From: Ostreococcus lucimarinus
Lineage: Eukaryota
Length of the DNA stretch: 64,000 bases
Assembly: GCA_000092065.1 (NCBI GenBank)
Contig: CP000591.1
Strand: one strand, 5' to 3'
A program made the position numbers and the translations under genes. This document shows, piece by piece, positions 27,612 to 45,600 of this stretch (its first letter is position 1; each line of letters begins with the position of its first letter). The notes beneath the pieces were generated by a model. That model was not told the DNA's origin, did not search any database, and was given only the letters and a program-made list of their open reading frames with translations.

Positions 27612-27780
27612 GTCGTACTTTTGTAAATCACCGTTATCCACGCGATTCTTCCGGCTTTGGCTTTGGCTTTTGCTGCCTGGCTTTGGCTGCGGCGCGCCGC
27701 GGCGCCGTCGACCGCACAACTCGACGATCGGCGACGCTCGGCGATCGCGATCTCGACGCGAGCGTCCGACGCGAAGCGAC

Positions 27781-30039: not shown

Positions 30040-30154
30040 ACTTTGCGATTGAAATATGATCTAAGAAGTACATTCATTAAACGCACTACAAACGCACTCC
30101 CGCCATGTAATATTTTTGTAACAACAGTTCGGACGCTCCGATGTACCGCGCAGC

Positions 30155-31096
30155 TCAATCGAACCCGACAAGCATGGGCGTGCATTTTTCGTACAAAGCG
30201 CGCGGCAATTTCGCCTTGAGCGCGGCGCGCACCTCCTCCGCCTTGTACCGCGCGCTGAAATGAATCAATAAAATAGCTTCGTTCTGGAACTTATCCGCGC
30301 GTGCGACGATATCGTCGATGTGCGTGTGCCCGAATCGCTCCGCGTCGTGCTTGCTCACCGCGTCGTCGATGAACGTGCACTCCATGATGAGAAGTTTCGC
30401 CCGGAGCGCGTCCGCGTTCGCGGGGTCGTCGATCCAGTCCCCGGTCGTGTCTCCAGTGAACGCCACCTCTGGGACTTCGACTTTATCCGTCACTTGTTCG
30501 CCGTCGTCGCGCAACCGCTTAATTTCCGGTCCGCTCAACCCCGCGTACGCGGGCTTCAACTTTTGCTTCGTGCCGTACACGACGTACCCTTGACTCGGCA
30601 CCGGATGCCTCGTTCTAAAAGCTGCGATTTCAAACAACTTATTCATCGCGTACCGCTCCCCCGGGTCGATCCCGATCGCGCGATGATTCAACTCGCTATC
30701 GTCCAACGCTCGCAGCGATTCTATAAACGTCCCGAACGCCTCTCTCCGCGCGCTCGGCAGCAGCACCGTCGGCGGCGTCAGGCTCAACAACCCGCGCGTC
30801 GCGATGTACATCCCACACCCTCCGACGTGATCCATGTGCGTGTGACTCAGGCACATCACGTCCGCGTACACGCACCGCTGCGGGCATCGCCCCGAATCGA
30901 ACGCCACCCCCAGCGCCGGCAGCACCACCGACGTCTCGCGTCCGCCCACGGAGACGCCCTCGATCTTATACCCCGCCAGCTCGTGCACCGCGTGTCGATC
31001 GCGATTCTTCGTCCTCTTCTGCGCGGCGTCGTCGCCGTCGCCGTCGCCTTCGCCGTCGCCTTCGCGTCCCGCCGGTCGGTCGCGCGCCGTCGCCAT
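30155..31096 (-). CDS. tRNase Z (RNase Z / ELAC1-type short form, metallo-beta-lactamase)
   Basis: The HxHxDH motif is in CLSHTHMDHVGGCG, and a C-terminal HFSARY block is present. ATG at 31096 (MATARDRP...) was verified. The ORF track extends upstream to 31924 over low-complexity sequence; a possible transit peptide from the MRVATRA... ATG cannot be excluded. Confidence 0.8.
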   Translation of the reverse strand: MATARDRPAGREGDGEGDGDGDDAAQKRTKNRDRHAVHELAGYKIEGVSVGGRETSVVLPALGVAFDSGRCPQRCVYADVMCLSHTHMDHVGGCGMYIATRGLLSLTPPTVLLPSARREAFGTFIESLRALDDSELNHRAIGIDPGERYAMNKLFEIAAFRTRHPVPSQGYVVYGTKQKLKPAYAGLSGPEIKRLRDDGEQVTDKVEVPEVAFTGDTTGDWIDDPANADALRAKLLIMECTFIDDAVSKHDAERFGHTHIDDIVARADKFQNEAILLIHFSARYKAEEVRAALKAKLPRALYEKCTPMLVGFD

Positions 31097-31135
31097 CGCG
31101 CGCGTCGTCGTCGTCCGTCGCGTCGCGTCGCGTCG

Positions 31136-31167
<32 letters not shown>

Positions 31168-31490
31168 ACGTCGACGTCGCGCTCGCGCAGGTCGCGCGCG
31201 TCGCGACGCGCATGCGACGCGCCGCGCTCCGCGGTCGACCGCGCGCGCGACGGCGACGTCGACCGCGGTCGGTCGCCAAACCCCGAGCGGATGATTGACG
31301 ACGACGGCAGAGCGCGACGATCGATCGCGCGTCGAGGGCGACGCGAAGCGCGCGCGAGGCAAAACGCGCGAGGCGACGCGCGGCAGACGAAGGCGTCGCG
31401 CGAATCGATTCGACGAAGAATCGAGTCTTCGCGCGATTTGATTTTGATTTGATTTTGATTTGATTGATTCGACGCGACGCGACGCCGGGG

Positions 31491-34400
31491 ATGGAACGAG
31501 GCGCGCGAACGCGCGCGAATGATGCGCGATGGACGCGAGGGACGATCGGGGCGAGAGGTGCGCGCGAACGGCGCGTCGTCGCGGTGAGAGTGACGACGCG
31601 GAGGGTAGGAGGCGACGCGAGCGTCGGCGCGGGAACGTCGAGGACGCGAACGTCGGTGGGGAAAACGCGCGCCGTGAACGGAGAGCGCGATGGTGAAGGC
31701 GGCGCGAACGATGAGGGAGACGCGGTGAGGGAGTACGGGACGTTTGGTTCGAGCGCGTCGTTCGCTCGAGACGCGGCGCCGGGGGAGGCGGCGGCGAGCG
31801 TGGCGGTGTACGTCGCGCGCGCGGTCGCGCTCGTCGTCGTCTCCGATATCGCGGCGTGGACGGTGACGCTGTATGGAGGGGGGATACCGGCCGCGATGCG
31901 CTCGCTGGTGATTTTTGGCGGCATGTCCGTGGTGTACTACGGCGCGTACGTCGCGCGATGGAATCGGTCGATGTTTGATTTGGCGACGCGCTTGGTCGCC
32001 GCGGCGGCGATTGGTTCGAGCTCGGTGATCTTTGGTACCGCTTTGGCGCTGAAAGTGATTCCGAGGCCGATGATGCAAGTGTTGGCCATCTTGCTCGCGT
32101 CGACGGTGGCGCCGCTGTTGGGCGTATACGTCGAAGAGTTGCGTTTGCACCGTACGTCGACGAGGCGTACGAGACTGATGATATTGTCGGACTGCTCGCT
32201 TTACGGTTCGTGGGACGCCGTCGCCGGCACTGTGGCGTGGGCATGCGCCTTCAACCAGTCCGCTGACGCCTTCGGCCCCGCGCTAGCGCAGAGTTCATTT
32301 GTCGCGTTTATCGTCGCCGCCGCGTGTCGTTGGATGCGAGCCATGTACGTATTGTACGTTATCGATCACTGGATCATTCAGACGGTCGCCGCGATGTCGC
32401 AAGAGTTCACAGAGACGGTGTCGCGAGCGACCGTTGTCGTTATGGAAGAAGTTTCGCGAGCGCCGATCGTCGTTAAGGAAACAGTTTCGCGAGTTTCTGT
32501 CGCGATTGCGGAAACGGTGACCCAAACGCCCGACGTGGTTTCGCACAATGACGAATCTCCGCAACCAGTCGCAGAGCCGAAGATGCACGAACGCTCGGAC
32601 AATAACGAAGCCGCCGTCGCGAGCGTAAAAATGCGGGTTGCGAGAGAACCTCAGCCAGTTGTCATGGAGTCGGCGCCTTCATCCGACGCCGCGCCTGTAG
32701 CAGGCGAAAGCGTGAGTGTCACTCAGCAGCCCGATGAACGGCGTATTGAGTACGCGCCTCCGTATACCGCGGTAATTCGTGAGCAGGATCCTCGTCCAGA
32801 ACCGCCGCGTGTCGTATACGCGCCCGCGTTTGTCGTGGTGGAAGAGGCATCGACGTCGTCTTCTACGGAATCCGACGTCACTCAACCGCTCGAGTCAAAG
32901 CGTCGCCGTCGACAGCGGAAGCGACAGTATCGCCGCCGTGAGTCGCTGGCGAAGAATACTATAGACATGAGCGAGATTGTGTCGAAAGAAGTTAACATAG
33001 CGCTGAACATGGGCGTTTCGATTGAGGCGGAGCTTCAGCGCATGTTGGATCGACGTCAATCGACGCTGAACGACATGAAAAACCAGCAAGCGAATCCAAT
33101 TTCTATCGCGCAAGTGGAAGCGGATATTGCCGCGCTGCGTGCTGAGCTGAGACGAGCCACGACATCACGCGAACAATTTCAACGAGCTCAAACGTCGTAT
33201 GAGAGCGATCTAGAGATGTGGATGGAATCGATACGCGCGGCGGCGGCGGTCTCGCGATTGGACTACGCAATCGATTCACTAAAAAACGCATCGGTCGCCG
33301 ACGACCCGCAGGTCAAGGAACTCATTGATCAAAGGGCTGTTTGGGGGTTGCGTTTGGTCAGCTCTCAAATATTTACGATTGTTGAATTGCAGGATTCACT
33401 TGACTCTGGGGAAGCACGTTCTTCCGCGCGCATAGCAGAATTACGAGGAGCTATAGAAAGTTTGGAGCTCAAATTGACTCGTTTGCAAGAAGAAAAGACG
33501 CAGAGCGTCGATAACCGTATTCTTTTGGAGGATCGTCTGCAGAAATTGAATCTTGAAATCGATTCTGTTCGGGAAAGAGAGCGCGTTGCGCAAGAAGACT
33601 GGCAAAGAGAGCGCCTGCGCCTGGAAGTTGAGCTCGAAGCTTCAGTCAAGGAACTTCAAACTGCCACGAGAACCGTCGACGACGCTCTCAAGGCGAAGTT
33701 AGAACTCCTTGCTAAGCTGCAGACCGCTCAAGATCAGAGCGACACTGATGCAGAGGCGATTCGGCGTCTCGAACATGAAACTGAAACTCTGCAAACGAAG
33801 CTCAAGTCCCTCACCGAGCAGCTATCTGTCGCAAATGCTAGTGTTGAACAAATCAATTCGCGTCGATTTGACTTAGAATCGCAACTGCGAGCAAAGGCAA
33901 CTGAGTTAGACTTGGCAAACGCCAATCGTGCCGATACTTCATTAGTTGAAGAGCTGAGGCGTCAAGTGAAGAATCTATCTACGGAGATCTGTTGGCTCAG
34001 AGATCAAAAATCGAGAGAAGGAAGCGAAGCAGAAGCAGTACTTCAAAAGCAACTCGCAGAGGCTCGTACGCAACTCGAAATCCAGCGAAATGAATTAGAA
34101 ATCGAAGCCAAGGCTGAAATTTCCGAATTGAAGCGATCCATGGATGTTATCCGCGAGGAGATGGAACGTCTAACGTCGGAGATGTCAGAGAAGACTGAAA
34201 AGAGTTTAGAGTATCAACGAATAGTTCAAGAGCGTCAAAAAGAGATTGAAAGTCTTACGAAAAACAAAGAGTTGGCCGCTCGCGCAATCGATGAGTCAAA
34301 GAAAAACTTGGCTCAGGCTCAGGAAGCGCTGGAGACGAAGCAAAAAGCACTAGATGACCGTGTTTCTCAGGTTGCAAGCTTATCTTTGGATCTTGCAGCG

Positions 34401-37400
34401 AGTGAGGAGAAAACGCTCACTCTTGAGCGCGAACTCTCAGCATCATGTCAACGCTCACAAGAGCTCGAAGAACTCATCTCCAGTCTTCGCTCGTACTCAG
34501 AATCACGCGATGCCTTGCTTGCTGACATAGATTTACTTCTCGGCAACGAAAACGACGAGCGCGAAGCGATGTTACGAGGCAGTAAGAACGCATCTGACCT
34601 CGTTGAGCGCATACAGAAACGTCTTCGAAGAGAAGTTGTCCTCGAGAAGAAGCTTGACCAAGCTCAGCTGCTCGAACAGGTAGGTCTCACAGTCGAAGAA
34701 TTGAAAACACGTGAAGCCGCATCACTTTGGTGGAAGGATCTAGTTCAAATTGGTTCTAAGGCTCTGGAAACGATTCAGAGCACCGCAGTGGATCTATCTA
34801 AGGGGACAGTCACGGCTTCATTGTTAGAGCGATCGATCAGTCTACGAGCGAAAGAGCTGCAGAATATCACCAGCGAACCGCAATACCAGAGATTGCAAAA
34901 AAGCTTCAATGATCTGAAGCGTCTTTCCGAAGCCGCAGAGCGAAAGTTGCAAGAAAAAGAGCGAAAGATAAAATCATTGAAGGCCGATAGCAAAGAGTCA
35001 GCTGCGGAATTGAAGGCGCTTACCTCAGAATTGGCCTCCGTGAAAGAAGATCTTAAATACATCAGAGATATTGCAAAAGAAGAGCGTGATGAACAGATTC
35101 AGCGCATAGAATCTCTCATGTTAGAGGTTGATTCATTCGAAAACGCCAAATTTGATGGTGAAGAGGCAGTACGCTTTAGAAACGAAGCAGCGAAGCTTCG
35201 AGGGATGAAAATTCGGTTGGAAGCTGAGCTCAAGTTGAGTCAAGATCTCGCAGAGACAGCGAGCAGCGAACTGGCTCGAGCTCGCGAAGAGCACGATGTC
35301 GTCATCACGCAGTTGAGTGAAGAAATAGCAGCTCTTGAACTCGACATCACAGTTAAATCTGAAGCGATCGAAAAGTTGGAGTCAAAGACGAATAATATTG
35401 AGGTCAAGTTGGGCTCCGATCTTGAGAGCGCGTTAGCAAAACTGAACACCACGCTCGAAGAACTCGATAAAAAGTCCACGGATTTTGCATCTCTTGAAAG
35501 CGCATCGGTTGAACAAAAGCGAAACTTTGAGAAGCACGTGGACGAGCTTGAAAAGCGCCTGGGTGCTTCCGAGGCTGAAGTGCAAAGATTGATACAAGAT
35601 AGAGATCTGGCTATTGAGGCCAAAGACAACGAAATGGTTTCGAAAATTCTTTCGCAGTCCGCTATCGTGTCCGATCTCGAGTCTGAGCGCGACGCGCTGC
35701 GTTCGCAGCTCGCCGACCTTTCGTCCGCTCGCGACTCTGAGCTGGCGTCTGTGCGCGCGGATCTTGAGTCCCAGCTTCGCGAGCGCGAGGAGGACATCGA
35801 GCGCGTGCGTTCTGAGCTCGACGAGTCCAAGGCGGCACTTGAGTCTGAGCGCGACGCGCTGCAGTCGGAGCTCGAGCGCGTGCTTTCTCAGGTGCCCGAG
35901 GTTGACGCGTCGCAGTCCGCTATCGTGTCCGATCTCGAGTCTGAGCGCGACGCGCTGCGTTCGCAGCTCGCCGACCTTTCGTCCGCTCGCGACTCTGAGT
36001 TGGCGTCTGTGCGCGCGGATCTTGAGTCCCAGCTTCGCGAGCGCGAGGAGGACATCGAGCGCGTGCGTTCTGAGCTCGACGAGTCCAAGGCGGCACTTGA
36101 GTCTGAGCGCGACGCGCTGCAGTCGGAGCTCGAGCGCGTGCTTTCTCAGGTGCCCGAGGTTGACGCGTCGCAGTCCGCTGCCGTGTCCGATCTCGAGTCT
36201 GAGCGCGACGCGCTGCGTTCGCAGCTCGCCGACCTTTCGTCCGCTCGCGACTCTGAGTTGGCGTCTGTGCGCGCGGATCTTGAGTCCCAGCTTCGCGAGC
36301 GCGAGGAGGACATCGAGCGCGTGCGTTCTGAGCTCGACGAGTCCAAGGCGGCACTTGAGTCTGAGCGCGACGCGCTGCAGTCGGAGCTCGAGCGCGTGCT
36401 TTCTCAGGTGCCCGAGGTTGACGCGTCGCAGTCCGCTATCGTGTCCGATCTCGAGTCTGAGCGCGACGCGCTGCGTTCGCAGCTCGCCGACCTTTCGTCC
36501 GCTCGCGACTCTGAGTTGGCGTCTGTGCGCGCGGATCTTGAGTCCCAGCTTCGCGAGCGCGAGGAGGACATCGAGCGCGTGCGTTCTGAGCTCGACGAGT
36601 CCAAGGCGGCACTTGAGTCTGAGCGCGACGCGCTGCAGTCGGAGCTCGAGCGCGTGCTTTCTCAGGTGCCCGAGGTTGACGCGTCGCAGTCCGCTGCCGT
36701 GTCCGATCTCGAGTCTGAGCGCGACGCGCTGCGTTCGCAGCTCGCCGACCTTTCGTCCGCTCGCGACTCTGAGTTGGCGTCTGTGCGCGCGGATCTTGAG
36801 TCCCAGCTTCGCGAGCGCGAGGAGGACATCGAGCGCGTGCGTTCTGAGCTCGACGAGTCCAAGGCGGCACTTGAGTCTGAGCGCGACGCGCTGCAGTCGG
36901 AGCTCGAGCGCGTGCTTTCTCAGGTGCCCGAGGTTGACGCGTCGCAGTCCGCTATCGTGTCCGATCTCGAGTCTGAGCGCGACGCGCTGCGTTCGCAGCT
37001 CGCCGACCTTTCGTCCGCTCGCGACTCTGAGTTGGCGTCTGTGCGCGCGGATCTTGAGTCCCAGCTTCGCGAGCGCGAGGAGGACATCGAGCGCGTGCGT
37101 TCTGAGCTCGACGAGTCCAAGGCGGCACTTGAGTCTGAGCGCGACGCGCTGCAGTCGGAGCTCGAGCGCGTGCTTTCTCAGGTGCCCGAGGTTGACGCGT
37201 CGCAGTCCGCTGCCGTGTCCGATCTCGAGTCTGAGCGCGACGCGCTGCGTTCGCAGCTCGCCGACCTTTCGTCCGCTCGCGACTCTGAGTTGGCGTCTGT
37301 GCGCGCGGATCTTGAGTCCCAGCTTCGCGAGCGCGAGGAGGACATCGAGCGCGTGCGTTCTGAGCTCGACGAGTCCAAGGCGGCACTTGAGTCTGAGCGC

Positions 37401-40400
37401 GACGCGCTGCAGTCGGAGCTCGAGCGCGTGCTTTCTCAGGTGCCCGAGGTTGACGCGTCGCAGTCCGCTGCCGTGTCCGATCTCGAGTCTGAGCGCGACG
37501 CGCTGCGTTCGCAGCTCGCCGACCTTTCGTCCGCTCGCGACTCTGAGTTGGCGTCTGTGCGCGCGGATCTTGAGTCCCAGCTTCGCGAGCGCGAGGAGGA
37601 CATCGAGCGCGTGCGTTCTGAGCTCGACGAGTCCAAGGCGGCACTTGAGTCTGAGCGCGACGCGCTGCAGTCGGAGCTCGAGCGCGTGCTTTCTCAGGTG
37701 CCCGAGGTTGACGCGTCGCAGTCCGCTGCCGTGTCCGATCTCGAGTCTGAGCGCGACGCGCTGCGTTCGCAGCTCGCCGACCTTTCGTCCGCTCGCGACT
37801 CTGAGTTGGCGTCTGTGCGCGCGGATCTTGAGTCCCAGCTTCGCGAGCGCGAGGAGGACATCGAGCGCGTGCGTTCTGAGCTCGACGAGTCCAAGGCGGC
37901 ACTTGAGTCTGAGCGCGACGCGCTGCAGTCGGAGCTCGAGCGCGTGCTTTCTCAGGTGCCCGAGGTTGACGCGTCGCAGTCCGCTGCCATGTCCGATCTC
38001 GAGTCTGAGCGCGACGCGCTGCGTTCGCAGCTCTCTGAGCTTCGTCAAATGTCCTCCGAATCCATCGCAGGACTCCAGCAGCAATTAGTCGCATTTTCGG
38101 CGGAGGCGGACTCTGCGGCTTCCTTGAGAAAAACAGTTAAAGAGTTGAAGGCAACTATCAGACAGCGCGAAAATTTGCTTTCTGAAACGGTGTTCGATCC
38201 GATGTTGAATGATGACTTGGACCGTATGAACGATGAGCTTGCATCGAAGAGTGCGGAACTAGATTCTGCACGGACGAAGTTGCAGTCGACTCTTAATAAG
38301 TTAAAAGAACGCGAGGAGCAGGCTGAATCTTCGCAAGCTGTTGCAAGTGCTGTCATAGATGAGATCCGCGCCGAGCTTTTGAATGCAAACGAAAAGTTGG
38401 CTGCTCGTGAGTCATACGCCAACGCTGTTGAGTTGGCGCTGCGGTCAGAACTCACAGAAAGAGAGAAAGAAATTGCGCTTTTGCGTGTCAAGGTAGCTAA
38501 AATTCTCGATGACAGCACGAACAAGCAGACAAGTCTCACCACTGCGCTCGATTCTGCGCAGTCTGAGATTGAGCGCCTCACTCGCGAGCTCGAGGATGTT
38601 GAGCAGAGCAAGCAAGTGGCCATGAAGGAGTCATTTGAGCGCAACGAATCGCAGATTGCGTCTCTGAACGCCGCGCACCGCGAGTTGGATCAGCGCCTGC
38701 GAGACGAGCTCGACGCGGCGCTCAAAGCGAAGGCAAGTCTTGAGAAGGAGCTCAGCGACCGCGCGGAATCCACCGCTGCTACCGAAACAGCGAAGCGCAA
38801 CGCCGAAGCACTGAGCGAAAGCTTGCAATCGCAGCTTGATGCACTGTCCACGCAGCGTGCTGAGCTCGAGCAGCGGCTGGTCAAGCGCGAGGAGGAGCTC
38901 GTCGCTGAGCTTGACGCAGCCAAGCATGAAGCCACAGCGCAGGCCGCACGTTTTGCACAACTTGGCGAGGCGGCCTCAGATCACGCACACGACGAGGTTG
39001 ATAAACTTAAGTCCGAAGTGGAACGACTCGAGTTTGAGCTCGGCGCTGTGAAAAACGAGCTGACAAGCGCGACGTCGACTGCGAAAGCGGACATTGCGAG
39101 GCTTACGGATGAACTTGCAAGCGCCAGCGCCGCGCGAGACGCCGTGGCTGAAACCGCTCATCCAGAAGAAGACGGGTCATCGGAGTCCGCATCGGCGTTC
39201 GAAGCCATGAGACGCGACATGACTCGTCTCGAGTCGGAGCTTGCCGCCGCTCTCGCGGAGCTTGCGGAGCTCGAATCGCCTCGCGAGTCAGAGTCCTCAG
39301 ATACTGAAGCTATTCGCGAGTTCACCACTGCGCTCGATTCTGCGCAGTCTGAGATTGAGCGCCTCACTCGCGAGCTCGAGGATGTTGAGCAGAGCAAGCA
39401 AGTGGCCATGAAGGAGTCATTTGAGCGCAACGAATCGCAGATTGCGTCTCTGAACGCCGCGCACCGCGAGTTGGATCAGCGCCTGCGAGACGAGCTCGAC
39501 GCGGCGCTCAAAGCGAAGGCAAGTCTTGAGGAGCGCAGCGACCGCGCGGAATCCACCGCTGCTACCGAAACAGCGAAGCGCAACGCCGAAGCACTGAGCG
39601 AAAGCTTGCAATCGCAGCTTGATGCACTGTCCACGCAGCGTGCTGAGCTCGAGCAGCGGCTAGTCAAGCGCGAGGAGGAGCTCGTCGCTGAGCTTGACGC
39701 AGCCAAGCATGAAGCCACAGCGCAGGCCGCACGTTTTGCACAACTTGGCGAGGCGGCCTCAGATCACGCACACGACGAGGTTGATAAACTTAAGTCCGAA
39801 GTGGAACGACTCGAGTTTGAGCTCGGCGCTGTGAAAAACGAGCTGACAAGCGCGACGTCGACTGCGAAAGCGGACATTGCGAGGCTTACGGATGAACTTG
39901 CAAGCGCCAGCGCCGCGCGAGACGCCGTGGCTGAAACCGCTCATCCAGAAGAAGACGGGTCATCGGAGTCCGCATCGGCGTTCGAAGCCATGAGACGCGA
40001 CATGACTCGTCTCGAGTCGGAGCTTGCCGCCGCTCTCGCGGAGCTTGCGGAGCTCGAATCGCCTCGCGAGTCAGAGTCCTCAGATACTGAAGCTATTCGC
40101 GAGTTCACCACTGCGCTCGATTCTGCGCAGTCTGAGATTGAGCGCCTCACTCGCGAGCTCGAGGATGTTGAGCAGAGCAAGCAAGTGGCCATGAAGGAGT
40201 CATTTGAGCGCAACGAATCGCAGATTGCGTCTCTGAACGCCGCGCACCGCGAGTTGGATCAGCGCCTGCGAGACGAGCTCGACGCGGCGCTCAAAGCGAA
40301 GGCAAGTCTTGAGAAGGAGCGCAGCGACCGCGCGGAATCCACCGCTGCTACCGAAACAGCGAAGCGCAACGCCGAAGCACTGAGCGAAAGCTTGCAATCG

Positions 40401-42632
40401 CAGCTTGATGCACTGTCCACGCAGCGTGCTGAGCTCGAGCAGCGGCTAGTCAAGCGCGAGGAGGAGCTCGTCGCTGAGCTTGACGCAGCCAAGCATGAAG
40501 CCACAGCGCAGGCCGCACGTTTTGCACAACTTGGCGAGGCGGCCTCAGATCACGCACACGACGAGGTTGATAAACTTAAGTCCGAAGTGGAACGACTCGA
40601 GTTTGAGCTCGGCGCTGTGAAAAACGAGCTGACAAGCGCGACGTCGACTGCGAAAGCGGACATTGCGAGGCTTACGGATGAACTTGCAAGCGCCAGCGCC
40701 GCGCGAGACGCCGTGGCTGAAACCGCTCATCCAGAAGAAGACGGGTCATCGGAGTCTGCATCGGCGTTCGAAGCCATGAGACGCGACATGACTCGTCTCG
40801 AGTCGGAGCTTGCCGCCGCTCTCGCGGAGCTTGCGGAGCTCGAATCGCCTCGCGAGTCAGAGTCCTCAGATACTGAAGCTATTCGCGAGTTCACCACTGC
40901 GCTCGATTCTGCGCAGTCTGAGATTGAGCGCCTCACTCGCGAGCTCGAGGATGTTGAGCAGAGCAAGCAAGTGGCCATGAAGGAGTCATTTGAGCGCAAC
41001 GAATCGCAGATTGCGTCTCTGAACGCCGCGCACCGCGAGTTGGATCAGCGCCTGCGAGACGAGCTCGACGCGGCGCTCAAAGCGAAGGCAAGTCTTGAGA
41101 AGGAGCTCAGCGACCGCGCGGAATCCACCGCTGCTACCGAAATAGCGAAGCGCAACGCCGAAGCACTGAGCGAAAGCTTGCAATCGCAGCTTGATGCTTC
41201 TCGCGCTGAAGAGGCGAAGCTCCGTGATGAGCTCAATCATTTTCAGGAGCTTGCACGAGAGGAGATTTCAGCACTCCATAATGAAATTACCGAAATAAAA
41301 TTCACGTCGCAAGAAAGTCAAGCGTCGCTTGGAGAATCACCGTGGCCGAGTATCACAATTTCCACCCTTGCGGGTCTTAACGAGATGATGTCTCGGGGAT
41401 CTGAATTCGGGAGTGAAGGCTTAGATTGGCTTGAGCACGCCGCACACGAAGTACAAGCGCTTGAAAAGTCCGTGTTGGATGCGACGGCTGAGCTCGAGTT
41501 ACGAGAGAATGAATATGAACAAACTATTGCACAGTTGCAAGATAGTGTTCGTGACGCGGAAACTGACCTCAACTCGCAGAAGAGTCTGGCTAGCGCAGCT
41601 TTGAGCGACGTCGAGCATCTGAATGATAAATTGGCCGAACGCGATGAGGAGCTGGCATCACTCCGGCTCGAACTCGCGAACTTGGTTTCAGATGACGTCA
41701 CACGCGAGCTTGAATTAACGATCAGTAATTTGAGGATACAGCTGACCGCAAAAGATAACGAGTTGAATGGAGCTGTCGCGTCGTTGAATGATTTGGAAAA
41801 CGACAAGAGAGCTATAGAAGAAGCAATGTCCGAACTACAAGCTGCAGCTGACATGCAAGCAGCTCGAGTGCAAACATCGATTGAGCAAATATCAAGTTTG
41901 AATGTTGAGCTGGCCAAGCGCTCTGCAGCTCTTGATGCTAGTTGGGATAATCTTTCTCACGCTGAATCACGCGCACGTTTTGCCGAGCAAGAGCGAGACG
42001 ACGTTCGCCGGCTTTTTGAGGAGCGACTTGCTGTGAAAGAGCGAGCACTACGCGAGACACAAGGAGATGTTGAACATCTTCGTCAGACGGTGCGTAATCT
42101 TCAGGATAAATTGAAAGCACATAGATATGCACGTTCTGAGACCGAAGCTGGTCATCCAGAAGAAGACGGGTCATCGGAGTCTGCATCGGCGTTCGAAGCC
42201 ATGAGACGCGACATGACTCGTCTCGAGTCGGAGCTTGCCGCCGCTCTCGCGGAGCTTGCGGAGCTCGAATCGCCTCGCGAGTCAGAGTCCTCAGATACTG
42301 AAGCTATTCGCGAGTTCACCACTGCGCTCGATTCTGCGCAGTCTGAGATTGAGCGCCTCACTCGCGAGCTCGAGGATGTTGAGCAGAGCAAGCAAGTGGC
42401 CATGAAGGAGTCATTTGAGCGCAACGAATCGCAGATTGCGTCTCTGAACGCCGCGCACCGCGAGTTGGATCAGCGCCTGCGAGACGAGCTCGACGCGGCG
42501 CTCAAAGCGAAGGCAAGTCTTGAGAAGGAGCTCAGCGACCGCGCGGAATCCACCGCTGCTACCGAAACAGCGAAGCGCAACGCCGAAGCACTGAGCGAAA
42601 GCTTGCAATCGCAGCTTGATGGAAAAACTTGA
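31491..42632 (+). CDS. Giant membrane-anchored coiled-coil repeat protein, part A (about 3700 aa): N-terminal multi-TM domain, then about 10 kb of coiled coil carrying 258-bp and 786-bp tandem repeat arrays
   Basis: One continuous frame runs from the first ATG at 31491 (the track starts at a TTG, 31464) to the stop at 42630-42632. The coiled-coil frame (E/L/R/A/S-rich, e.g. SDLESERDALRSQLADLSSARDSELASVRADLESQLREREEDIERVRSELDESKAALESERDALQSELERV) stays open through both the repeats and the unique AT-richer spacers. The stop lies exactly at a repeat junction (see gene B). Confidence 0.75.
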   Translation: MERGARTRANDARWTRGTIGARGARERRVVAVRVTTRRVGGDASVGAGTSRTRTSVGKTRAVNGERDGEGGANDEGDAVREYGTFGSSASFARDAAPGEAAASVAVYVARAVALVVVSDIAAWTVTLYGGGIPAAMRSLVIFGGMSVVYYGAYVARWNRSMFDLATRLVAAAAIGSSSVIFGTALALKVIPRPMMQVLAILLASTVAPLLGVYVEELRLHRTSTRRTRLMILSDCSLYGSWDAVAGTVAWACAFNQSADAFGPALAQSSFVAFIVAAACRWMRAMYVLYVIDHWIIQTVAAMSQEFTETVSRATVVVMEEVSRAPIVVKETVSRVSVAIAETVTQTPDVVSHNDESPQPVAEPKMHERSDNNEAAVASVKMRVAREPQPVVMESAPSSDAAPVAGESVSVTQQPDERRIEYAPPYTAVIREQDPRPEPPRVVYAPAFVVVEEASTSSSTESDVTQPLESKRRRRQRKRQYRRRESLAKNTIDMSEIVSKEVNIALNMGVSIEAELQRMLDRRQSTLNDMKNQQANPISIAQVEADIAALRAELRRATTSREQFQRAQTSYESDLEMWMESIRAAAAVSRLDYAIDSLKNASVADDPQVKELIDQRAVWGLRLVSSQIFTIVELQDSLDSGEARSSARIAELRGAIESLELKLTRLQEEKTQSVDNRILLEDRLQKLNLEIDSVRERERVAQEDWQRERLRLEVELEASVKELQTATRTVDDALKAKLELLAKLQTAQDQSDTDAEAIRRLEHETETLQTKLKSLTEQLSVANASVEQINSRRFDLESQLRAKATELDLANANRADTSLVEELRRQVKNLSTEICWLRDQKSREGSEAEAVLQKQLAEARTQLEIQRNELEIEAKAEISELKRSMDVIREEMERLTSEMSEKTEKSLEYQRIVQERQKEIESLTKNKELAARAIDESKKNLAQAQEALETKQKALDDRVSQVASLSLDLAASEEKTLTLERELSASCQRSQELEELISSLRSYSESRDALLADIDLLLGNENDEREAMLRGSKNASDLVERIQKRLRREVVLEKKLDQAQLLEQVGLTVEELKTREAASLWWKDLVQIGSKALETIQSTAVDLSKGTVTASLLERSISLRAKELQNITSEPQYQRLQKSFNDLKRLSEAAERKLQEKERKIKSLKADSKESAAELKALTSELASVKEDLKYIRDIAKEERDEQIQRIESLMLEVDSFENAKFDGEEAVRFRNEAAKLRGMKIRLEAELKLSQDLAETASSELARAREEHDVVITQLSEEIAALELDITVKSEAIEKLESKTNNIEVKLGSDLESALAKLNTTLEELDKKSTDFASLESASVEQKRNFEKHVDELEKRLGASEAEVQRLIQDRDLAIEAKDNEMVSKILSQSAIVSDLESERDALRSQLADLSSARDSELASVRADLESQLREREEDIERVRSELDESKAALESERDALQSELERVLSQVPEVDASQSAIVSDLESERDALRSQLADLSSARDSELASVRADLESQLREREEDIERVRSELDESKAALESERDALQSELERVLSQVPEVDASQSAAVSDLESERDALRSQLADLSSARDSELASVRADLESQLREREEDIERVRSELDESKAALESERDALQSELERVLSQVPEVDASQSAIVSDLESERDALRSQLADLSSARDSELASVRADLESQLREREEDIERVRSELDESKAALESERDALQSELERVLSQVPEVDASQSAAVSDLESERDALRSQLADLSSARDSELASVRADLESQLREREEDIERVRSELDESKAALESERDALQSELERVLSQVPEVDASQSAIVSDLESERDALRSQLADLSSARDSELASVRADLESQLREREEDIERVRSELDESKAALESERDALQSELERVLSQVPEVDASQSAAVSDLESERDALRSQLADLSSARDSELASVRADLESQLREREEDIERVRSELDESKAALESERDALQSELERVLSQVPEVDASQSAAVSDLESERDALRSQLADLSSARDSELASVRADLESQLREREEDIERVRSELDESKAALESERDALQSELERVLSQVPEVDASQSAAVSDLESERDALRSQLADLSSARDSELASVRADLESQLREREEDIERVRSELDESKAALESERDALQSELERVLSQVPEVDASQSAAMSDLESERDALRSQLSELRQMSSESIAGLQQQLVAFSAEADSAASLRKTVKELKATIRQRENLLSETVFDPMLNDDLDRMNDELASKSAELDSARTKLQSTLNKLKEREEQAESSQAVASAVIDEIRAELLNANEKLAARESYANAVELALRSELTEREKEIALLRVKVAKILDDSTNKQTSLTTALDSAQSEIERLTRELEDVEQSKQVAMKESFERNESQIASLNAAHRELDQRLRDELDAALKAKASLEKELSDRAESTAATETAKRNAEALSESLQSQLDALSTQRAELEQRLVKREEELVAELDAAKHEATAQAARFAQLGEAASDHAHDEVDKLKSEVERLEFELGAVKNELTSATSTAKADIARLTDELASASAARDAVAETAHPEEDGSSESASAFEAMRRDMTRLESELAAALAELAELESPRESESSDTEAIREFTTALDSAQSEIERLTRELEDVEQSKQVAMKESFERNESQIASLNAAHRELDQRLRDELDAALKAKASLEERSDRAESTAATETAKRNAEALSESLQSQLDALSTQRAELEQRLVKREEELVAELDAAKHEATAQAARFAQLGEAASDHAHDEVDKLKSEVERLEFELGAVKNELTSATSTAKADIARLTDELASASAARDAVAETAHPEEDGSSESASAFEAMRRDMTRLESELAAALAELAELESPRESESSDTEAIREFTTALDSAQSEIERLTRELEDVEQSKQVAMKESFERNESQIASLNAAHRELDQRLRDELDAALKAKASLEKERSDRAESTAATETAKRNAEALSESLQSQLDALSTQRAELEQRLVKREEELVAELDAAKHEATAQAARFAQLGEAASDHAHDEVDKLKSEVERLEFELGAVKNELTSATSTAKADIARLTDELASASAARDAVAETAHPEEDGSSESASAFEAMRRDMTRLESELAAALAELAELESPRESESSDTEAIREFTTALDSAQSEIERLTRELEDVEQSKQVAMKESFERNESQIASLNAAHRELDQRLRDELDAALKAKASLEKELSDRAESTAATEIAKRNAEALSESLQSQLDASRAEEAKLRDELNHFQELAREEISALHNEITEIKFTSQESQASLGESPWPSITISTLAGLNEMMSRGSEFGSEGLDWLEHAAHEVQALEKSVLDATAELELRENEYEQTIAQLQDSVRDAETDLNSQKSLASAALSDVEHLNDKLAERDEELASLRLELANLVSDDVTRELELTISNLRIQLTAKDNELNGAVASLNDLENDKRAIEEAMSELQAAADMQAARVQTSIEQISSLNVELAKRSAALDASWDNLSHAESRARFAEQERDDVRRLFEERLAVKERALRETQGDVEHLRQTVRNLQDKLKAHRYARSETEAGHPEEDGSSESASAFEAMRRDMTRLESELAAALAELAELESPRESESSDTEAIREFTTALDSAQSEIERLTRELEDVEQSKQVAMKESFERNESQIASLNAAHRELDQRLRDELDAALKAKASLEKELSDRAESTAATETAKRNAEALSESLQSQLDGKT
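31780..32360 (+). other. N-terminal polytopic membrane domain of the giant protein (4-6 predicted TM helices)
   Basis: Hydrophobic stretches include AAASVAVYVARAVALVVVSDIAAW, MRSLVIFGGMSVVYYGAYV, LVAAAAIGSSSVIFGTALAL, MMQVLAILLASTVAPLLGVYV, AVAGTVAWACAF and SSFVAFIVAAACRWMRAMYVLYVI. Confidence 0.6.
32405..32530 (+). repeat. Short 42-bp (14-aa) tandem repeat, about 3-4 copies of ETVSRxxVVxxE immediately after the TM domain
   Basis: The peptide TETVSRATVVVMEEVSRAPIVVKETVSRVSVAIAETVTQTP is encoded by recurring gtttcgcgag units. Confidence 0.7.
35650..38040 (+). repeat. Tandem array A of about 9.3 copies of a 258-bp (86-aa) coiled-coil unit, with a 516-bp alternation (AIV/AAV variants)
   Basis: Units recur at 35653, 35911, 36169, ... 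with at least 98% identity. Only the first copies (35653, 35911) and every second copy after them carry ...SQSAIVSD...; the rest are ...SQSAAVSD... Confidence 0.92.
38520..41210 (+). repeat. Tandem array of about 3.4 copies of a 786/783-bp (262-aa) coiled-coil unit (TTALDSAQSEIERLTRELEDVEQSKQ...HPEEDGSSESASAFEAMRRDMTRLESELAAALAELAELESPRESESSDTEAIREF). A further partial copy lies at 42150-42620.
   Basis: Unit starts are at 38533, 39318, 40101 and 40887. One copy is 3 bp shorter (LEERSDR versus LEKELSDR). Confidence 0.9.
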
Positions 42633-45600
42633 GTCATTGCGCCGTGAGCACGAAACAAAACTGAACGACATGCGTGAGTCTGCAACACAACAACGCGCGG
42701 ATCTTGAGTCCCAGCTTCGCGAGCGCGAGGAGGACATCGAGCGCGTGCGTTCTGAGCTCGACGAGTCCAAGGCGGCACTTGAGTCTGAGCGCGACGCGCT
42801 GCAGTCGGAGCTCGAGCGCGTGCTTTCTCAGGTGTCTGAGTCTGAGTCTCTGCAGTCCGCTGCCGTGTCCGATCTCGAGTCTGAGCGCGACGCGCTGCGT
42901 TCGCAGCTCGCCGACCTTTCGTCCGCTCGCGACTCTGAGTTGGCGTCTGTGCGCGCGGATCTTGAGTCCCAGCTTCGCGAGCGCGAGGAGGACATCGAGC
43001 GCGTGCGTTCTGAGCTCGACGAGTCCAAGGCGGCACTTGAGTCTGAGCGCGACGCGCTGCAGTCGGAGCTCGAGCGCGTGCTTTCTCAGGTGTCTGAGTC
43101 TGAGTCTCTGCAGTCCGCTGCCGTGTCCGATCTCGAGTCTGAGCGCGACGCGCTGCGTTCGCAGCTCGCCGACCTTTCGTCCGCTCGCGACTCTGAGTTG
43201 GCGTCTGTGCGCGCGGATCTTGAGTCCCAGCTTCGCGAGCGCGAGGAGGACATCGAGCGCGTGCGTTCTGAGCTCGACGAGTCCAAGGCGGCACTTGAGT
43301 CTGAGCGCGACGCGCTGCAGTCGGAGCTCGAGCGCGTGCTTTCTCAGGTGTCTGAGTCTGAGTCTCTGCAGTCCGCTGCCGTGTCCGATCTCGAGTCTGA
43401 GCGCGACGCGCTGCGTTCGCAGCTCGCCGACCTTTCGTCCGCTCGCGACTCTGAGTTGGCGTCTGTGCGCGCGGATCTTGAGTCCCAGCTTCGCGAGCGC
43501 GAGGAGGACATCGAGCGCGTGCGTTCTGAGCTCGACGAGTCCAAGGCGGCACTTGAGTCTGAGCGCGACGCGCTGCAGTCGGAGCTCGAGCGCGTGCTTT
43601 CTCAGGTGTCTGAGTCTGAGTCTCTGCAGTCCGCTGCCGTGTCCGATCTCGAGTCTGAGCGCGACGCGCTGCGTTCGCAGCTCGCCGACCTTTCGTCCGC
43701 TCGCGACTCTGAGTTGGCGTCTGTGCGCGCGGATCTTGAGTCCCAGCTTCGCGAGCGCGAGGACGACATCGAGCGCGTGCGTTCTGAGCTCGACGAGTCC
43801 AAGGCGGCACTTGAGTCTGAGCGCGACGCGCTGCAGTCGGAGCTCGAGCGCGTGCTTTCTCAGGTGCCCGAGGTTGACGCGTCGCAGTCCGCTGCCGTGT
43901 CCGATCTCGAGTCTGAGCGCGACGCGCTGCGTTCGCAGCTCGCCGACCTTTCGTCCGCTCGCGACTCTGAGTTGGCGTCTGTGCGCGCGGATCTTGAGTC
44001 CCAGCTTCGCGAGCGCGAGGAGGACATCGAGCGCGTGCGTTCTGAGCTCGACGAGTCCAAGGCGGCACTTGAGTCTGAGCGCGACGCGCTGCAGTCGGAG
44101 CTCGAGCGCGTGCTTTCTCAGGTGCCCGAGGTTGACGCGTCGCAGTCCGCTGCCGTGTCCGATCTCGAGTCTGAGCGCGACGCGCTGCGTTCGCAGCTCG
44201 CCGACCTTTCGTCCGCTCGCGACTCTGAGTTGGCGTCTGTGCGCGCGGATCTTGAGTCCCAGCTTCGCGAGCGCGAGGAGGACATCGAGCGCGTGCGTTC
44301 TGAGCTCGACGAGTCCAAGGCGGCACTTGAGTCTGAGCGCGACGCGCTGCAGTCGGAGCTCGAGCGCGTGCTTTCTCAGGTGCCCGAGGTTGACGCGTCG
44401 CAGTCCGCTGCCGTGTCCGATCTCGAGTCTGAGCGCGACGCGCTGCGTTCGCAGCTCGCCGACCTTTCGTCCGCTCGCGACTCTGAGTTGGCGTCTGTGC
44501 GCGCGGATCTTGAGTCCCAGCTTCGCGAGCGCGAGGAGGACATCGAGCGCGTGCGTTCTGAGCTCGACGAGTCCAAGGCGGCACTTGAGTCTGAGCGCGA
44601 CGCGCTGCAGTCGGAGCTCGAGCGCGTGCTTTCTCAGGTGCCCGAGGTTGACGCGTCGCAGTCCGCTGCCGTGTCCGATCTCGAGTCTGAGCGCGACGCG
44701 CTGCGTTCGCAGCTCGCCGACCTTTCGTCCGCTCGCGACTCTGAGTTGGCGTCTGTGCGCGCGGATCTTGAGTCCCAGCTTCGCGAGCGCGAGGAGGACA
44801 TCGAGCGCGTGCGTTCTGAGCTCGACGAGTCCAAGGCGGCACTTGAGTCTGAGCGCGACGCGCTGCAGTCGGAGCTCGAGCGCGTGCTGGGAGAGTTGAG
44901 TCAGTCGACTTCGGCGCTTCGGCGCGTTGAGGAGGATCTCAATGCCGCTTTAAGCGACCGCGATGAGTTCGAAGAAGAGAGTGATCGTTTGCGTCGGCGT
45001 CTACCACGACTTGAACGAGAGCATAACGAGTTGGAGGATGCAATGCGCTTGGAAATGGACGAATTGGCTTCAAAGCTTGCAGCGATGTCAAAAGCGCGCG
45101 ATGATCTCGAGAAGGACATGATTGAGCAGAGTGATGGTCTGTACAAGGCACTTGGCAGTAGCCGCGAGGATCTGCAGCGAGAACTAAACGAGGGCAAGAA
45201 GTTACTTGCTCAACGTGAGGCCGAGCTAAAGCGTTTAACTGCCGATTTTTCGTTGAAAGAGCACGCAATTGAGTCTGAGCGAGAAGCACTTGCGACCGAA
45301 TTGGATCGACTGATACACAAGGTGCCAGCCTTGGAGTTGACTACGGCTGAACTAGAGGCTGAACGCGCGGAGTTGCGCGAAAAGCTTGATGATTTGATAG
45401 CAAATCGTGATCAGCTGGCGGCCAATCTGCGAACCGAGAACGATTCGATGTCAGCAGAACTGTCCATGACTCGAGAAGCTCTTGATGAACAATTCAATGC
45501 CGTTACAACACAGCTCCTTGAAACCGATGAGATCATCGACAAGATGCGCAAGGATAACGAAGCTGCAAAGGAAGCAGCAGAGAACGACCGCTTAGCGCTA

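What the first reader, a model, noticed from the sequence alone, without database searches (positions are those of the whole stretch)
35650..38040. A 258-bp (86-aa) coiled-coil module amplified about 20 times across the locus in distinct subfamily blocks
Array A has about 9.3 copies, array B about 8.5, and each 1539-bp unit adds about 2.4 more. Subfamilies are defined by the linker residues: SQVPEVDASQSAIV/AAV in A, then SQVSESESLQSAAV x4 and SQVPEVDASQSAAV x4 in B. Blocks of identical variants, together with a 516-bp alternation in array A, point to recent unequal crossing-over or gene conversion rather than ancient divergence. In a compact genome that is otherwise poor in repeats, this is conspicuous.
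Basis: seen in the sequence. Interest (0 to 1): 0.5.

Follow-up and report, generated by a model that had tools for sequence, protein, structure and literature searches.

The report
Amplified helical module in giant starch-binding protein
The 258-bp repeat is real: it is an in-frame 86-residue helical building block, copied 24 times inside a roughly 6,000-residue membrane-anchored coiled-coil gene of the picoalga Ostreococcus lucimarinus that ends in a starch-binding domain, and its copy number differs between wild relatives.

Summary
The window is a chromosome end of Ostreococcus lucimarinus CCE9901. It holds 24 copies of a 258-bp unit (21 full-length) in four arrays: 35652-38046, 42694-44913, 45781-46427 and 47320-47963. 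The 127-bp core is identical in 23 of the 24 copies. Variation is confined to the linker codons (PEVDAS/SESESL, and Ile/Ala/Met).

The arrays make up about a third of one 18.25-kb gene. It encodes an Arg/Ala/Thr-rich N-terminus, about six hydrophobic helices, roughly 5,000 residues of coiled coil and a C-terminal CBM20 starch-binding domain.

AlphaFold predicts each unit as one helix of about 80 residues, ending at a Pro hinge.

Relatives show concerted evolution. A sister species has a 315-bp unit only 72-79% identical. A colinear 4,091-residue ortholog has only single-copy units. Wild O. lucimarinus-like contigs carry the identical core in different numbers per array.

Short-read assemblies break or collapse at the arrays, so exact copy numbers remain uncertain.

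The reference also carries a junction without homology at 42621/42622. It shifts the frame and splits the gene into two ORFs.

I infer, without a direct test, that the protein is a plastid-membrane tether or scaffold for the single starch granule. I found no paper describing it.

The parts
31491..42632 (+). ORF1 of the giant gene, counted from the first ATG of the open frame 31464-42632. It covers the N-terminal extension, the hydrophobic domain, unique coiled coil, array A, U1, the 787-bp repeats, U2 and a partial 787 unit. It ends at a TGA created by the frameshifting junction.
31794..32390 (+). Hydrophobic domain of about six predicted membrane helices (residues about 102-300). It follows an Arg/Gly/Ala/Thr-rich stretch of about 100 residues that resembles a transit peptide.
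   Evidence: Hydropathy. The domain is conserved at the N-terminus of four other large proteins. The AlphaFold model has six to seven helices but low confidence, pLDDT 61.5.
35652..38046 (+). Array A: 9 full 258-bp units plus a degenerating tenth. All linkers are PEVDAS. The variable codon reads I,I,A,I,A,I,A,A,A,M.
38047..38531 (+). U1, a unique coiled-coil segment. It is orthologous to residues 1820-1952 of P0093.
38532..41197 (+). Repeat with a period of about 787 bp (about 262 residues), 3.4 copies at 99.2-99.5% identity. Copies differ by an in-frame 3-bp indel and a T/G change (EKELSD / EERSD / EKERSD).
41198..42200 (+). U2, a unique coiled-coil segment. It is orthologous to residues 2792-3094 of P0093.
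42313..42621 (+). Partial extra copy of the 787-bp unit (unit positions 1-310). It ends abruptly at the junction.
42621..42632 (+). Junction without homology, ...CAGCTTGATG | GAAAAACTTGAG..., between the 787-bp unit and the last 72 bp of a spacer module. It shifts the frame by +1 and gives a TGA at 42630-42632. An ATG at 42619 opens ORF2.
42619..49740 (+). ORF2 of the giant gene: spacer tail, array B, two spacer-plus-mini-array modules, and the unique C-terminus with CBM20.
42694..44913 (+). Array B: 9 unit cores (the first unit is partial). Linkers are SESESL x4, then PEVDAS x4, and the last unit runs into the spacer.
44889..45780 (+). Spacer module Sp, copy 1 (about 297 residues of unique coiled coil). 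A homologous spacer alternates with repeat arrays in the sister species L001.
45781..46427 (+). Mini-array of 2.5 units (3 cores; linkers S, then P, then into the spacer).
46428..47319 (+). Spacer module Sp, copy 2 (99.66% identical to copy 1).
47320..47963 (+). Mini-array of 2.5 units (3 cores; linkers S, S, then into the C-terminal region).
48928..49116 (+). CBM20 starch-binding domain (residues 310-372 of the translation of 48001-49737).
   Evidence: Pfam PF00686 scores 32.7 bits against a cut-off of 23.3. The best solved relative is the Aspergillus niger glucoamylase starch-binding domain 1AC0, with the Trp/Trp/Lys motif positions aligned. PF00686 is on record for all 15 homologs except P0004 and is found in P0093.

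Best explanation
Shown. The 258-bp repeat is an in-frame 86-residue module of one very large gene of Ostreococcus lucimarinus. The gene spans 18.25 kb and about 6,086 codons, and about a third of it is this repeat. Its order is: an N-terminal Arg/Ala/Thr-rich extension, a domain of about six hydrophobic helices, about 5,000 residues of coiled-coil sequence, and a C-terminal CBM20 starch-binding domain.

Each module is predicted to be one continuous alpha-helix of about 80 residues, ended by a short Pro-containing break (QVPEVDA). Its hydrophobic period is 86/24 = 3.58 residues, with about four +4 register shifts per unit.

The module descends from a motif of about 52 residues (…REREEDIERVRSELDESKAALESERDALQSEL…). 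This motif is single-copy in a distant ortholog and was amplified independently, as a 105-residue unit, in a sister species. Within O. lucimarinus the copies are kept identical at the nucleotide level. Variants survive at array edges and in the linker, and array sizes differ between wild genomes. This is the signature of ongoing unequal crossing-over and gene conversion.

Inferred. The protein is anchored in a plastid membrane. Its hinged rod would be several hundred nm long if extended, comparable to the roughly 1-um cell. It presents the CBM20 domain to the single starch granule, acting as a tether or scaffold that positions or partitions the granule. The repeat arrays act as tolerated, length-variable rod segments rather than a precise ruler.

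In the CCE9901 reference a junction without homology at 42621/42622 splits the gene into a membrane-anchor ORF and a CBM20 ORF. This is most likely a strain-specific lesion or a cloning chimera, not the ancestral state.
For: Repeat anatomy.

Organism: neighbouring proteins are exact matches to XP_001420240 and XP_001420236 of O. lucimarinus CCE9901. Telomere repeats lie at 1-344.

Domains: CBM_20 scores above the Pfam cut-off and aligns to glucoamylase SBD 1AC0. Hydrophobic helices are seen, and the domain is conserved at the N-terminus of P0090-P0093.

One-gene architecture:
- P0093 is a single 4,091-residue ORF, colinear in the order TM domain, N, U1, M, U2, R-like, Sp-like, CBM20.
- Contig_17669 carries an uninterrupted ORF of at least 6,692 residues starting at the same N-terminus.
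- Short-read collapsed versions keep the N-terminus and CBM20 in one frame.

Helix plus hinge: AlphaFold gives H2-80, H86-166 and H174-251 at pLDDT 83.8.

Concerted evolution:
- The sister-species unit is 315 bp and 72-79% identical.
- There are no tandem arrays in L040, L038 or L039.
- 169 of 170 cores are identical across contigs.

Copy-number differences between contigs. Gene spans run from 13.7 to 25.8 kb.

Starch context: known non-catalytic scaffolds that combine coiled coil with a CBM (PTST, BSG1) and the membrane-anchored coiled-coil protein MFP1 act on granule initiation and positioning (10.1101/2024.10.03.616402; PMC6374437). Ostreococcus has one granule that is divided and partitioned with the plastid (PMC3056741, citing Ral et al. 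2004).
Against: - No expression, localisation or starch-binding data exist. The plastid targeting is read by eye from N-terminal composition.
- The reference gene is interrupted by a frameshift. One wild contig also shows two ORFs (3080 + 5509 residues). An intact single protein in CCE9901 is therefore not shown.
- The two complete long-read contigs lack the U1-M-U2 segment. They contain indel errors, so some of the 'polymorphism' may be assembly collapse.
- A two-fold range in rod length argues against any length-critical role.
- The single-chain AlphaFold model says nothing about oligomeric state, and pTM is only 0.29.
- The transmembrane-domain model has low confidence.
Confidence: 0.7

Rival explanations
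1. The repeat is real, but its copy numbers and block order in this reference, and in the wild contigs, are largely assembly products. Arrays of identical 258-bp units exceed read or k-mer length, so assemblers pick arbitrary paths. On this reading the apparent polymorphism and the I/A alternation carry little biological information.
For: - Four short-read metagenome contigs end within about 165 bp of the last repeat.
- Megahit and scaffolded contigs collapse the gene to 1,994 or 2,421 residues, or to a single unit.
- Three long JGI/ENA contigs end inside the gene.
- ENA long-read contigs carry frameshifts in unique sequence and lack the ancestral U1-M-U2 segment.
Against: - The 3' architecture [S S P P P P > Sp][S P > Sp][S S > C] recurs in three independent samples. 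It differs from the reference only by steps of one or two units. That pattern looks like real stepwise variation, not random path choice.
- Variant order inside arrays (S units at array starts, P units later) is consistent in all contigs.
- The reference was assembled with a non-repeat junction that reads must have spanned.
Confidence: 0.25
2. In CCE9901 the locus is a broken gene. The junction at 42621/42622 is a genuine illegitimate recombination that truncates the protein after 3,713 residues. The downstream arrays and CBM20 are then untranslated, or translated separately from ATG 42619. The arrays are neutral expansions in a decaying or culture-relaxed gene.
For: - The junction has no homology between its partners, shifts the frame by +1 and creates a stop 9 nt later.
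- Misassemblies normally occur inside shared repeats, not at unique breakpoints.
- The spacer upstream of array B is truncated to 72 bp, whereas wild contigs have a full spacer there.
Against: - Both ORFs are otherwise perfectly open over 11.2 and 7.1 kb, so any inactivation must be very recent.
- Orthologs and a wild contig have one long ORF.
- A 1-nt error or a chimeric clone at that point would give the same picture.
Confidence: 0.3
3. The protein is not a starch-granule tether. It is a cytoplasmic or endomembrane giant coiled-coil tether, like a golgin or a nuclear-envelope/cytoskeletal linker, whose CBM20-like domain binds another glucan or a protein.
For: - Pfam finds nothing but generic coiled-coil similarities in the rod.
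- No targeting predictor could be run.
- CBM20 domains occur in non-plastid proteins too, which I state from general knowledge of the family. Laforin is one example. A glycerophosphodiester phosphodiesterase was among the weak hits.
Against: - The CBM20 motif positions that align with the glucoamylase starch-binding sites are conserved.
- The domain is retained in every ortholog found.
- The N-terminal extension is basic and hydroxylated and poor in acidic residues in three orthologs.
- In green algae starch is plastidial.
Confidence: 0.15
4. Each 86-residue unit does not extend a two-stranded coiled coil. Instead it folds back at the Pro hinge on its neighbours to form spectrin-like antiparallel helical bundles, giving a shorter, elastic, beaded chain.
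For: - The unit length is not a multiple of 7, and there are four register shifts per unit.
- There is a regular Pro-containing break every 86 residues.
- pTM is low at 0.29, so the relative arrangement of the helices is undefined.
Against: - Helices of about 80 residues are far longer than the roughly 30-residue helices of spectrin-type bundles.
- The sister species' 105-residue unit has no proline.
- The sequence is highly charged, with an a/d-type hydrophobic stripe typical of extended coiled coils.
Confidence: 0.12

Closest known systems
PTST family (PROTEIN TARGETING TO STARCH 1/2/3, rice FLO6) of land plants
   Same: Non-catalytic. The coiled coil lies N-terminal to a C-terminal starch-binding module of the CBM20/CBM48 group. 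The role is to bring partners to the granule or to granule initiation sites (10.1101/2024.10.03.616402; PMC6243121).
   Different: The module here is CBM20, not CBM48: AMPK1_CBM scores 20.9 bits, below its 26.8 cut-off. The protein is 10-20 times larger, has a multi-helix membrane anchor, and contains tandemly amplified rod modules. No sequence homology outside the CBM was detected.
Chlamydomonas BSG1 (Cre02.g091750)
   Same: A green-algal, non-catalytic protein combining CBM20 with a coiled coil. Its loss alters starch granule size and initiation (PMC6374437).
   Different: BSG1 has 792 residues, with CBM20 at the N-terminus and one short coiled coil (residues 302-380). It has no membrane domain and no repeats. 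Its authors found homologs only in close relatives of Chlamydomonas.
Arabidopsis MFP1 and MRC/PII1
   Same: Long plastidial coiled-coil proteins. According to 10.1101/2024.10.03.616402, MFP1 sets the sub-chloroplast location of starch granule initiation. That MFP1 is membrane-anchored is my own knowledge.
   Different: Neither has a carbohydrate-binding module, since they act through PTST2. They are much smaller and no tandem arrays are reported. Homology was not tested here.
Tandem-repeat coiled-coil proteins that evolve by unequal exchange, such as streptococcal M proteins and giant eukaryotic rod proteins with higher-order repeats (from general knowledge)
   Same: In-frame head-to-tail helical modules. 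The arrays are homogenised and vary in copy number between strains, with variant units at the array edges.
   Different: Those examples are surface or antigenic, or cytoskeletal. This one is an intracellular algal protein with a starch-binding end. The unit here is unusually long (86 residues) and identical even at synonymous sites.

Membership tests
CBM20 starch-binding domain (Pfam PF00686) | Profile match above the curated gathering score | tested here: met
   32.7 bits against a cut-off of 23.3, E 6.6e-8, residues 310-372 of the C-terminal query. P0093 scores 27.3 bits. PF00686 is on record for 14 of the 15 homologs.
CBM20 starch-binding domain (Pfam PF00686) | Conserved aromatic and Lys positions of the glucoamylase-type binding sites | tested here: met
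   In the alignment to 1AC0, GTWCDW pairs with LGDW, NIWKGT with PLWYVT, and YEYKYV with FEYKFI.
CBM20 starch-binding domain (Pfam PF00686) | Binds starch or alpha-glucan | not testable with these tools
   Needs a pull-down or isotherm with the recombinant domain.
PTST family | C-terminal CBM48 (AMPK beta-type glycogen-binding module) | tested here: not met
   PF16561 AMPK1_CBM scores 20.9 bits, below its 26.8 cut-off. CBM_20 is the better match and passes its own cut-off.
PTST family | Coiled coil N-terminal to the CBM, with no catalytic domain | tested here: met
   Translations. Pfam finds no other domain.
PTST family | Plastid localisation and interaction with starch synthases | not testable with these tools
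   Only the transit-peptide-like N-terminal composition is available.
BSG1 (Chlamydomonas) | N-terminal CBM20 followed by a coiled coil, about 800 residues | tested here: not met
   Here CBM20 lies at the C-terminal end of a gene of about 6,086 codons. The BSG1 architecture is taken from PMC6374437.
MFP1-like membrane-anchored plastid coiled-coil proteins | N-terminal membrane anchor followed by a long coiled coil | tested here: met
   Hydrophobic segments at residues about 102-300, conserved in orthologs. This is an architectural resemblance only. Sequence homology to MFP1 was not tested.
Canonical heptad coiled coil | Continuous a/d hydrophobic stripe with a 3.5-residue period | tested here: inconclusive
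   The strongest period is 3.583 (86/24). The register shifts by +4 about four times per unit. Helices of about 80 residues are predicted. The oligomeric state is untestable here, and no COILS or Marcoil program was available.
Tandem array under concerted evolution (unequal crossing-over / gene conversion) | Copies within a genome are more alike than orthologous units between species | tested here: met
   Within the genome, 23 of 24 cores are identical. Against the L001 unit, identity is 72-79% and the period is 315 bp.
Tandem array under concerted evolution (unequal crossing-over / gene conversion) | Copy-number polymorphism among conspecific genomes | tested here: met
   Array barcodes differ between the window and six or seven wild contigs that are 99.3-100% identical in unique modules. 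The caveat is assembly reliability.
Tandem array under concerted evolution (unequal crossing-over / gene conversion) | Variant units concentrated at array edges | tested here: met
   SESESL-linker units always follow a spacer. Terminal units diverge into the flanks.

The most novel reading that the evidence does not exclude
The gene encodes a previously undescribed protein that may be restricted to Ostreococcus and its closest relatives. It would be a plastid-membrane-anchored, hinged rod, several hundred nm long if extended, that grips the cell's single starch granule through a terminal CBM20 domain. On this reading it combines in one polypeptide the roles split between MFP1 (membrane position) and PTST (glucan binding) in land plants. 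It would then be part of the unknown machinery that positions and partitions the granule at plastid division. The hypervariable 86-residue modules would set a rod length that natural populations vary about two-fold.
Probability: 0.3. Interest if true: 0.7.

Novelty: new variant of a known kind. Interest (0 to 1): 0.5.

Why it matters
Ostreococcus is the smallest free-living eukaryote. It keeps one starch granule, which must be divided and handed to both daughter cells, and the proteins that hold or split that granule are unknown.

A conserved gene of 4,000 to more than 8,000 codons with a membrane anchor at one end and a starch-binding module at the other is a concrete, testable candidate for that role. 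It is probably among the largest genes in a 13-Mb genome. That size figure is from my own knowledge and was not tested here.

The repeat arrays are also a clean natural example of concerted evolution inside a coding rod. They are a practical warning as well: this locus is broken, collapsed or frameshifted in most assemblies, including the finished reference, so gene catalogues are likely to miss or fragment the protein.

Tried and rejected
1. The search for homologous proteins with the N-terminal region and with U2 returned nothing, although near-identical ORFs exist on fetched contigs. The word index seems not to hold, or not to rank, these giant low-complexity proteins. These nulls are therefore uninformative.

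2. A metagenome scan with U2 found no relative. I first read this as absence of U1-M-U2 in nature. I dropped that reading once P0093 showed the segment is ancestral.

3. I first took the JGI ORFs of 4,988, 5,509 and 4,348 residues as complete single-ORF genes. Record coordinates show two are cut by contig ends and the third is the second of two ORFs. This was corrected in the notebook.

4. Exact look-up of ORF1, ORF2 and several neighbouring proteins failed. How the reference annotation treats the gene is therefore unknown.

5. An alignment-based AlphaFold model of the membrane domain reached only pLDDT 61.5. I ran no fold search on it, because matches would be meaningless.

6. The long ORFs on the minus strand and in other frames across the arrays (for example 35433-38084 on the minus strand, 35614-38088 on the plus strand) were rejected. 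They are by-products of a stop-free periodic sequence. Only the frame continuous with the conserved N- and C-terminal regions has homologs.

7. An intron rescuing the frame at 42.6 kb was considered. It cannot be tested without RNA data, and no evidence for one was found.

8. I checked whether the frameshift in contig Ga0494219_00053 is the same junction as in the window. The 1,494-bp offset difference is not a combination of whole 258- or about 786-bp units, so it is probably not the same junction.

Full report
**Where the window comes from.** The window begins with (CCCTAAA)n telomere repeats at 1-344. Two of its proteins are exact matches to Ostreococcus lucimarinus CCE9901 entries. XP_001420240 is encoded at 50579-51766 and XP_001420236 at 25942-26526, on a 593,542-bp record. 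The finding therefore lies 31-50 kb from a chromosome end of a very compact green picoalga with about 59% GC.

**Checking the observation.** Tandem Repeats Finder reports four period-258 arrays:
- 35652-38033, 9.2 copies
- 42694-44888, 8.5 copies
- 45781-46427, 2.5 copies
- 47320-47963, 2.5 copies

An in-register scan gives 21 full units at 92-100% identity. There are 24 copies of the 127-bp core, all on the + strand and none elsewhere in the window.

The difference map is striking. Outside the linker there are only two singleton substitutions in all copies. 23 of the 24 cores are identical.

One is AT versus GC at unit positions 13-14, giving Ile or Ala. The other is the last roughly 25 nt, giving the PEVDAS or SESESL linker. 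Array A reads I,I,A,I,A,I,A,A,A and then a Met variant that degenerates into unique sequence. Array B is SESESL x4 followed by PEVDAS x4. The 1539-bp higher-order unit is confirmed at 99.1%.

It has a period of about 787 bp (38532-41197, 3.4 copies), with a partial copy at 42313-42621.

**The gene that contains the repeats.** The arrays lie in two huge + strand ORFs, 31464-42632 (3,722 codons) and 42616-49740 (2,374 codons). Only this frame continues into conserved unique sequence. The long ORFs in other frames and on the minus strand are by-products of a stop-free periodic sequence.

The C-terminal region has a CBM_20 starch-binding domain above Pfam's cut-off (32.7 bits against 23.3). Its best solved relative is the Aspergillus niger glucoamylase starch-binding domain. 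The Trp, Trp and Lys motif positions align.

The N-terminus has about 100 Arg/Gly/Ala/Thr-rich residues, then about six hydrophobic segments at residues 102-300. Everything between is charged, helix-forming sequence that hits only generic coiled-coil families, below their thresholds. From ATG 31491 to stop 49740 the gene spans 18,250 bp. The 24 units make up 34% of it.

**Structure of the unit.** The hydrophobic pattern has its strongest period at 3.583 residues, which is 86/24. The best heptad register moves by +4 about four times per unit, so 86 is roughly six heptads plus four hendecads.

AlphaFold2 on three units, run without an alignment, gives three helices of 79-81 residues (2-80, 86-166, 174-251). 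They are separated by breaks of 5-7 residues at QVPEVDA. Mean pLDDT is 83.8 and pTM is 0.29, so the helices are confident but their mutual arrangement is not.

At about 0.15 nm per residue, one unit would be about 12 nm and 24 units about 285 nm. The whole rod would be several hundred nm, comparable to the roughly 1-um cell. These lengths are my own inference.

**Relatives of the gene.** All 15 homologs of the C-terminal region except one carry PF00686.

A syntenic sister-species locus (L001, with PRP8 and PTH2 downstream) also has giant arrays. Its period is 315 bp, equal to 153 + 162 bp or 105 residues. The motif is clearly related (…SDRESEIARVQSELAETKSSLESERDALQAEL…), and a homologous spacer module alternates with the arrays. 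At the nucleotide level the two species' units are only 72-79% identical.

A full HMMER scan with the hydrophobic domain found four convincing relatives, all with the domain at the N-terminus of large proteins. One of them, P0093, is a complete single ORF of 4,091 residues on a short-read contig with no tandem repeats. It is colinear with the window gene. The order is membrane domain, N region, U1, two M-like segments, U2, single R-like units (one with a QVPVLE hinge), an Sp-like segment, and CBM20.

More distant loci (L038, L039) also have ORFs of more than 6,000-7,000 residues ending in CBM20, without recent arrays.

The architecture is therefore conserved. The amplification of the 86-residue unit is specific to this lineage.

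**Polymorphism between wild genomes.** Neighbouring proteins led to seven long contigs from other samples that are 99.3-100% identical in the unique modules. The core is identical in 169 of 170 units examined, but the arrangement differs.

Below, P is a PEVDAS-linker unit, S is a SESESL-linker unit, Pi/Pa/Pm mark the Ile, Ala and Met variants, '> Sp' means the array runs into a spacer, and '> C' means it runs into the C-terminal region.

| Source | Arrangement |
|---|---|
| Window | [Pi Pa Pi Pa Pi Pa Pa Pa Pm] - U1 - M - U2 - [S S S S P P P P > Sp][S P > Sp][S S > C] |
| Three JGI contigs | share [S S P P P P > Sp][S P > Sp] |
| Their terminal array | [S S > C] in two, [S S S > C] in one |
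| Further upstream in those contigs | different arrays, or extra [S > Sp] modules |

From record coordinates, complete gene spans are 13.7 kb in two ENA contigs, 18.25 kb in the window, and 25.3 and 25.8 kb in two JGI contigs. One contig has an uninterrupted ORF of at least 6,692 residues that is cut by the contig end.

The step-like differences of one or two units look biological. Several caveats apply:
- The two 13.7-kb versions lack the ancestral U1-M-U2 block and carry indel errors, so they may be collapsed.
- Short-read contigs stop at the array edge or collapse the gene to 1,994-2,421 residues.
- Three long contigs end inside the gene.

**The frameshift in the reference.** At 42621/42622 a 787-bp unit (…CAGCTTGATG) abuts the last 72 bp of a spacer (GAAAAACTTGAG…). 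The two partners share no homology at that point. The frame shifts by +1 and a TGA follows at 42630-42632. Wild contigs have a complete spacer upstream of the equivalent array.

A breakpoint outside any shared repeat is unlikely to be an ordinary repeat-mediated misassembly. It is either a real, recent lesion in the cultured strain or a chimeric clone or base error. It is not the ancestral state.

**Mechanism and function.** The following points are shown:
- The unit is an in-frame helical module.
- Copies are homogenised within the genome.
- The unit has diverged and been re-formatted between species.
- Variants sit at array edges.
- Copy number varies between wild genomes.

The function is inferred. 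The protein would be a plastid-membrane-anchored, hinged coiled-coil tether or scaffold that binds the single starch granule through CBM20. This is analogous to the land-plant combination of MFP1 with PTST2, and to Chlamydomonas BSG1 (10.1101/2024.10.03.616402; PMC6374437). It is relevant to the granule division and partitioning described for Ostreococcus (PMC3056741, citing Ral et al. 2004).

The protein is not a member of the PTST family, because the CBM48 profile scores below its cut-off. It also does not have the BSG1 architecture. Four literature searches found no description of this protein.

**Verdict.** The repeat phenomenon itself is an ordinary, though very clean, case of concerted evolution in a coiled-coil rod. 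The host gene is the more interesting object. It is a giant membrane-to-starch protein with no description in the held literature, and assemblies systematically mishandle it.

Noticed in passing
window 1-344: Telomere-type (CCCTAAA)n repeats with an embedded 119-bp unit present twice at 100% identity (107-344). The window is therefore a chromosome end, and the giant repeat gene is subtelomeric, 31-50 kb from the end.
   Followed up: partly
window 42621-42632: A junction without homology joins a 787-bp repeat unit to a truncated spacer. It causes a +1 frameshift and a stop, splitting the giant gene into two ORFs in the reference. Orthologs and one wild contig have one continuous ORF.
   Followed up: yes
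window 38724-41150 (the 787-bp units): Copies differ by an in-frame 3-bp indel plus a T/G change in one spot (GAGAAGGAGCTCAGC / GAGGAGCGCAGC / GAGAAGGAGCGCAGC, giving EKELS / EERS / EKERS). This is either real micro-variation or GC-compression errors in the reference.
   Followed up: partly
window 60771-63977 (- strand); L038/L039 15186-18336: An alpha-glucan (starch) phosphorylase gene (PF00343) lies 11 kb downstream of the giant CBM20 gene. In two distant relatives the orthologous giant gene sits next to a gene resembling a glucan water dikinase (GWD1_pHisD, PPDK_N). This may be loose clustering with starch-metabolism genes, or coincidence.
   Followed up: no
L030+L013 and L035+L015 (ENA contig_23990, contig_26746): Two complete long-read versions of the gene, 13.7 kb each, go straight from one big array to spacer and C-terminus. 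They lack the 4.6-kb U1-M-U2 block, which is ancestral according to P0093. This is either a real deletion between arrays A and B or an assembly collapse.
   Followed up: partly
L033 about 19743-20585; unit codon 5 in all arrays: The fifth codon of the unit is a hotspot. It is Ala (GCC) or Ile (ATC) in the window, Met in the terminal unit, and Val in one wild contig. Val would be the one-step intermediate between the Ala and Ile codons.
   Followed up: no
L021 13586-20906 (ENA GIFF20-1 scaffold_86): In this scaffold the genes after the PUF gene are unrelated to the giant gene (COMM_HN, a MYST acetyltransferase, a metallophosphatase). None of its modules is present. The scaffold has 100 Ns. This is either a scaffolding jump or a structural variant.
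   Followed up: no
window 35433-38084 (-), 35614-38088 (+), 42470-44842 (-), 42674-44899 (+): ORFs of 740-880 codons lie in other frames and on the opposite strand across the arrays. A stop-free unit repeated many times keeps every stop-free frame open. These are not evidence of overlapping genes.
   Followed up: yes
(tool behaviour): The word-indexed protein search returned no hit for two unique parts of this gene, and it never returned the giant ORFs that exist on fetched contigs. Very long coiled-coil proteins seem to be invisible to that index, so nulls from it should not be read as absence.
   Followed up: partly
window 26706-31220: The upstream neighbours are a CBS-domain gene, a pumilio-family (PUF) gene and a minus-strand gene resembling a metallo-beta-lactamase fold. 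Only three GenBank protein accessions fall between XP_001420236 and XP_001420240, although about six genes lie there. The giant gene may therefore be unannotated or only partly annotated in the reference.
   Followed up: no
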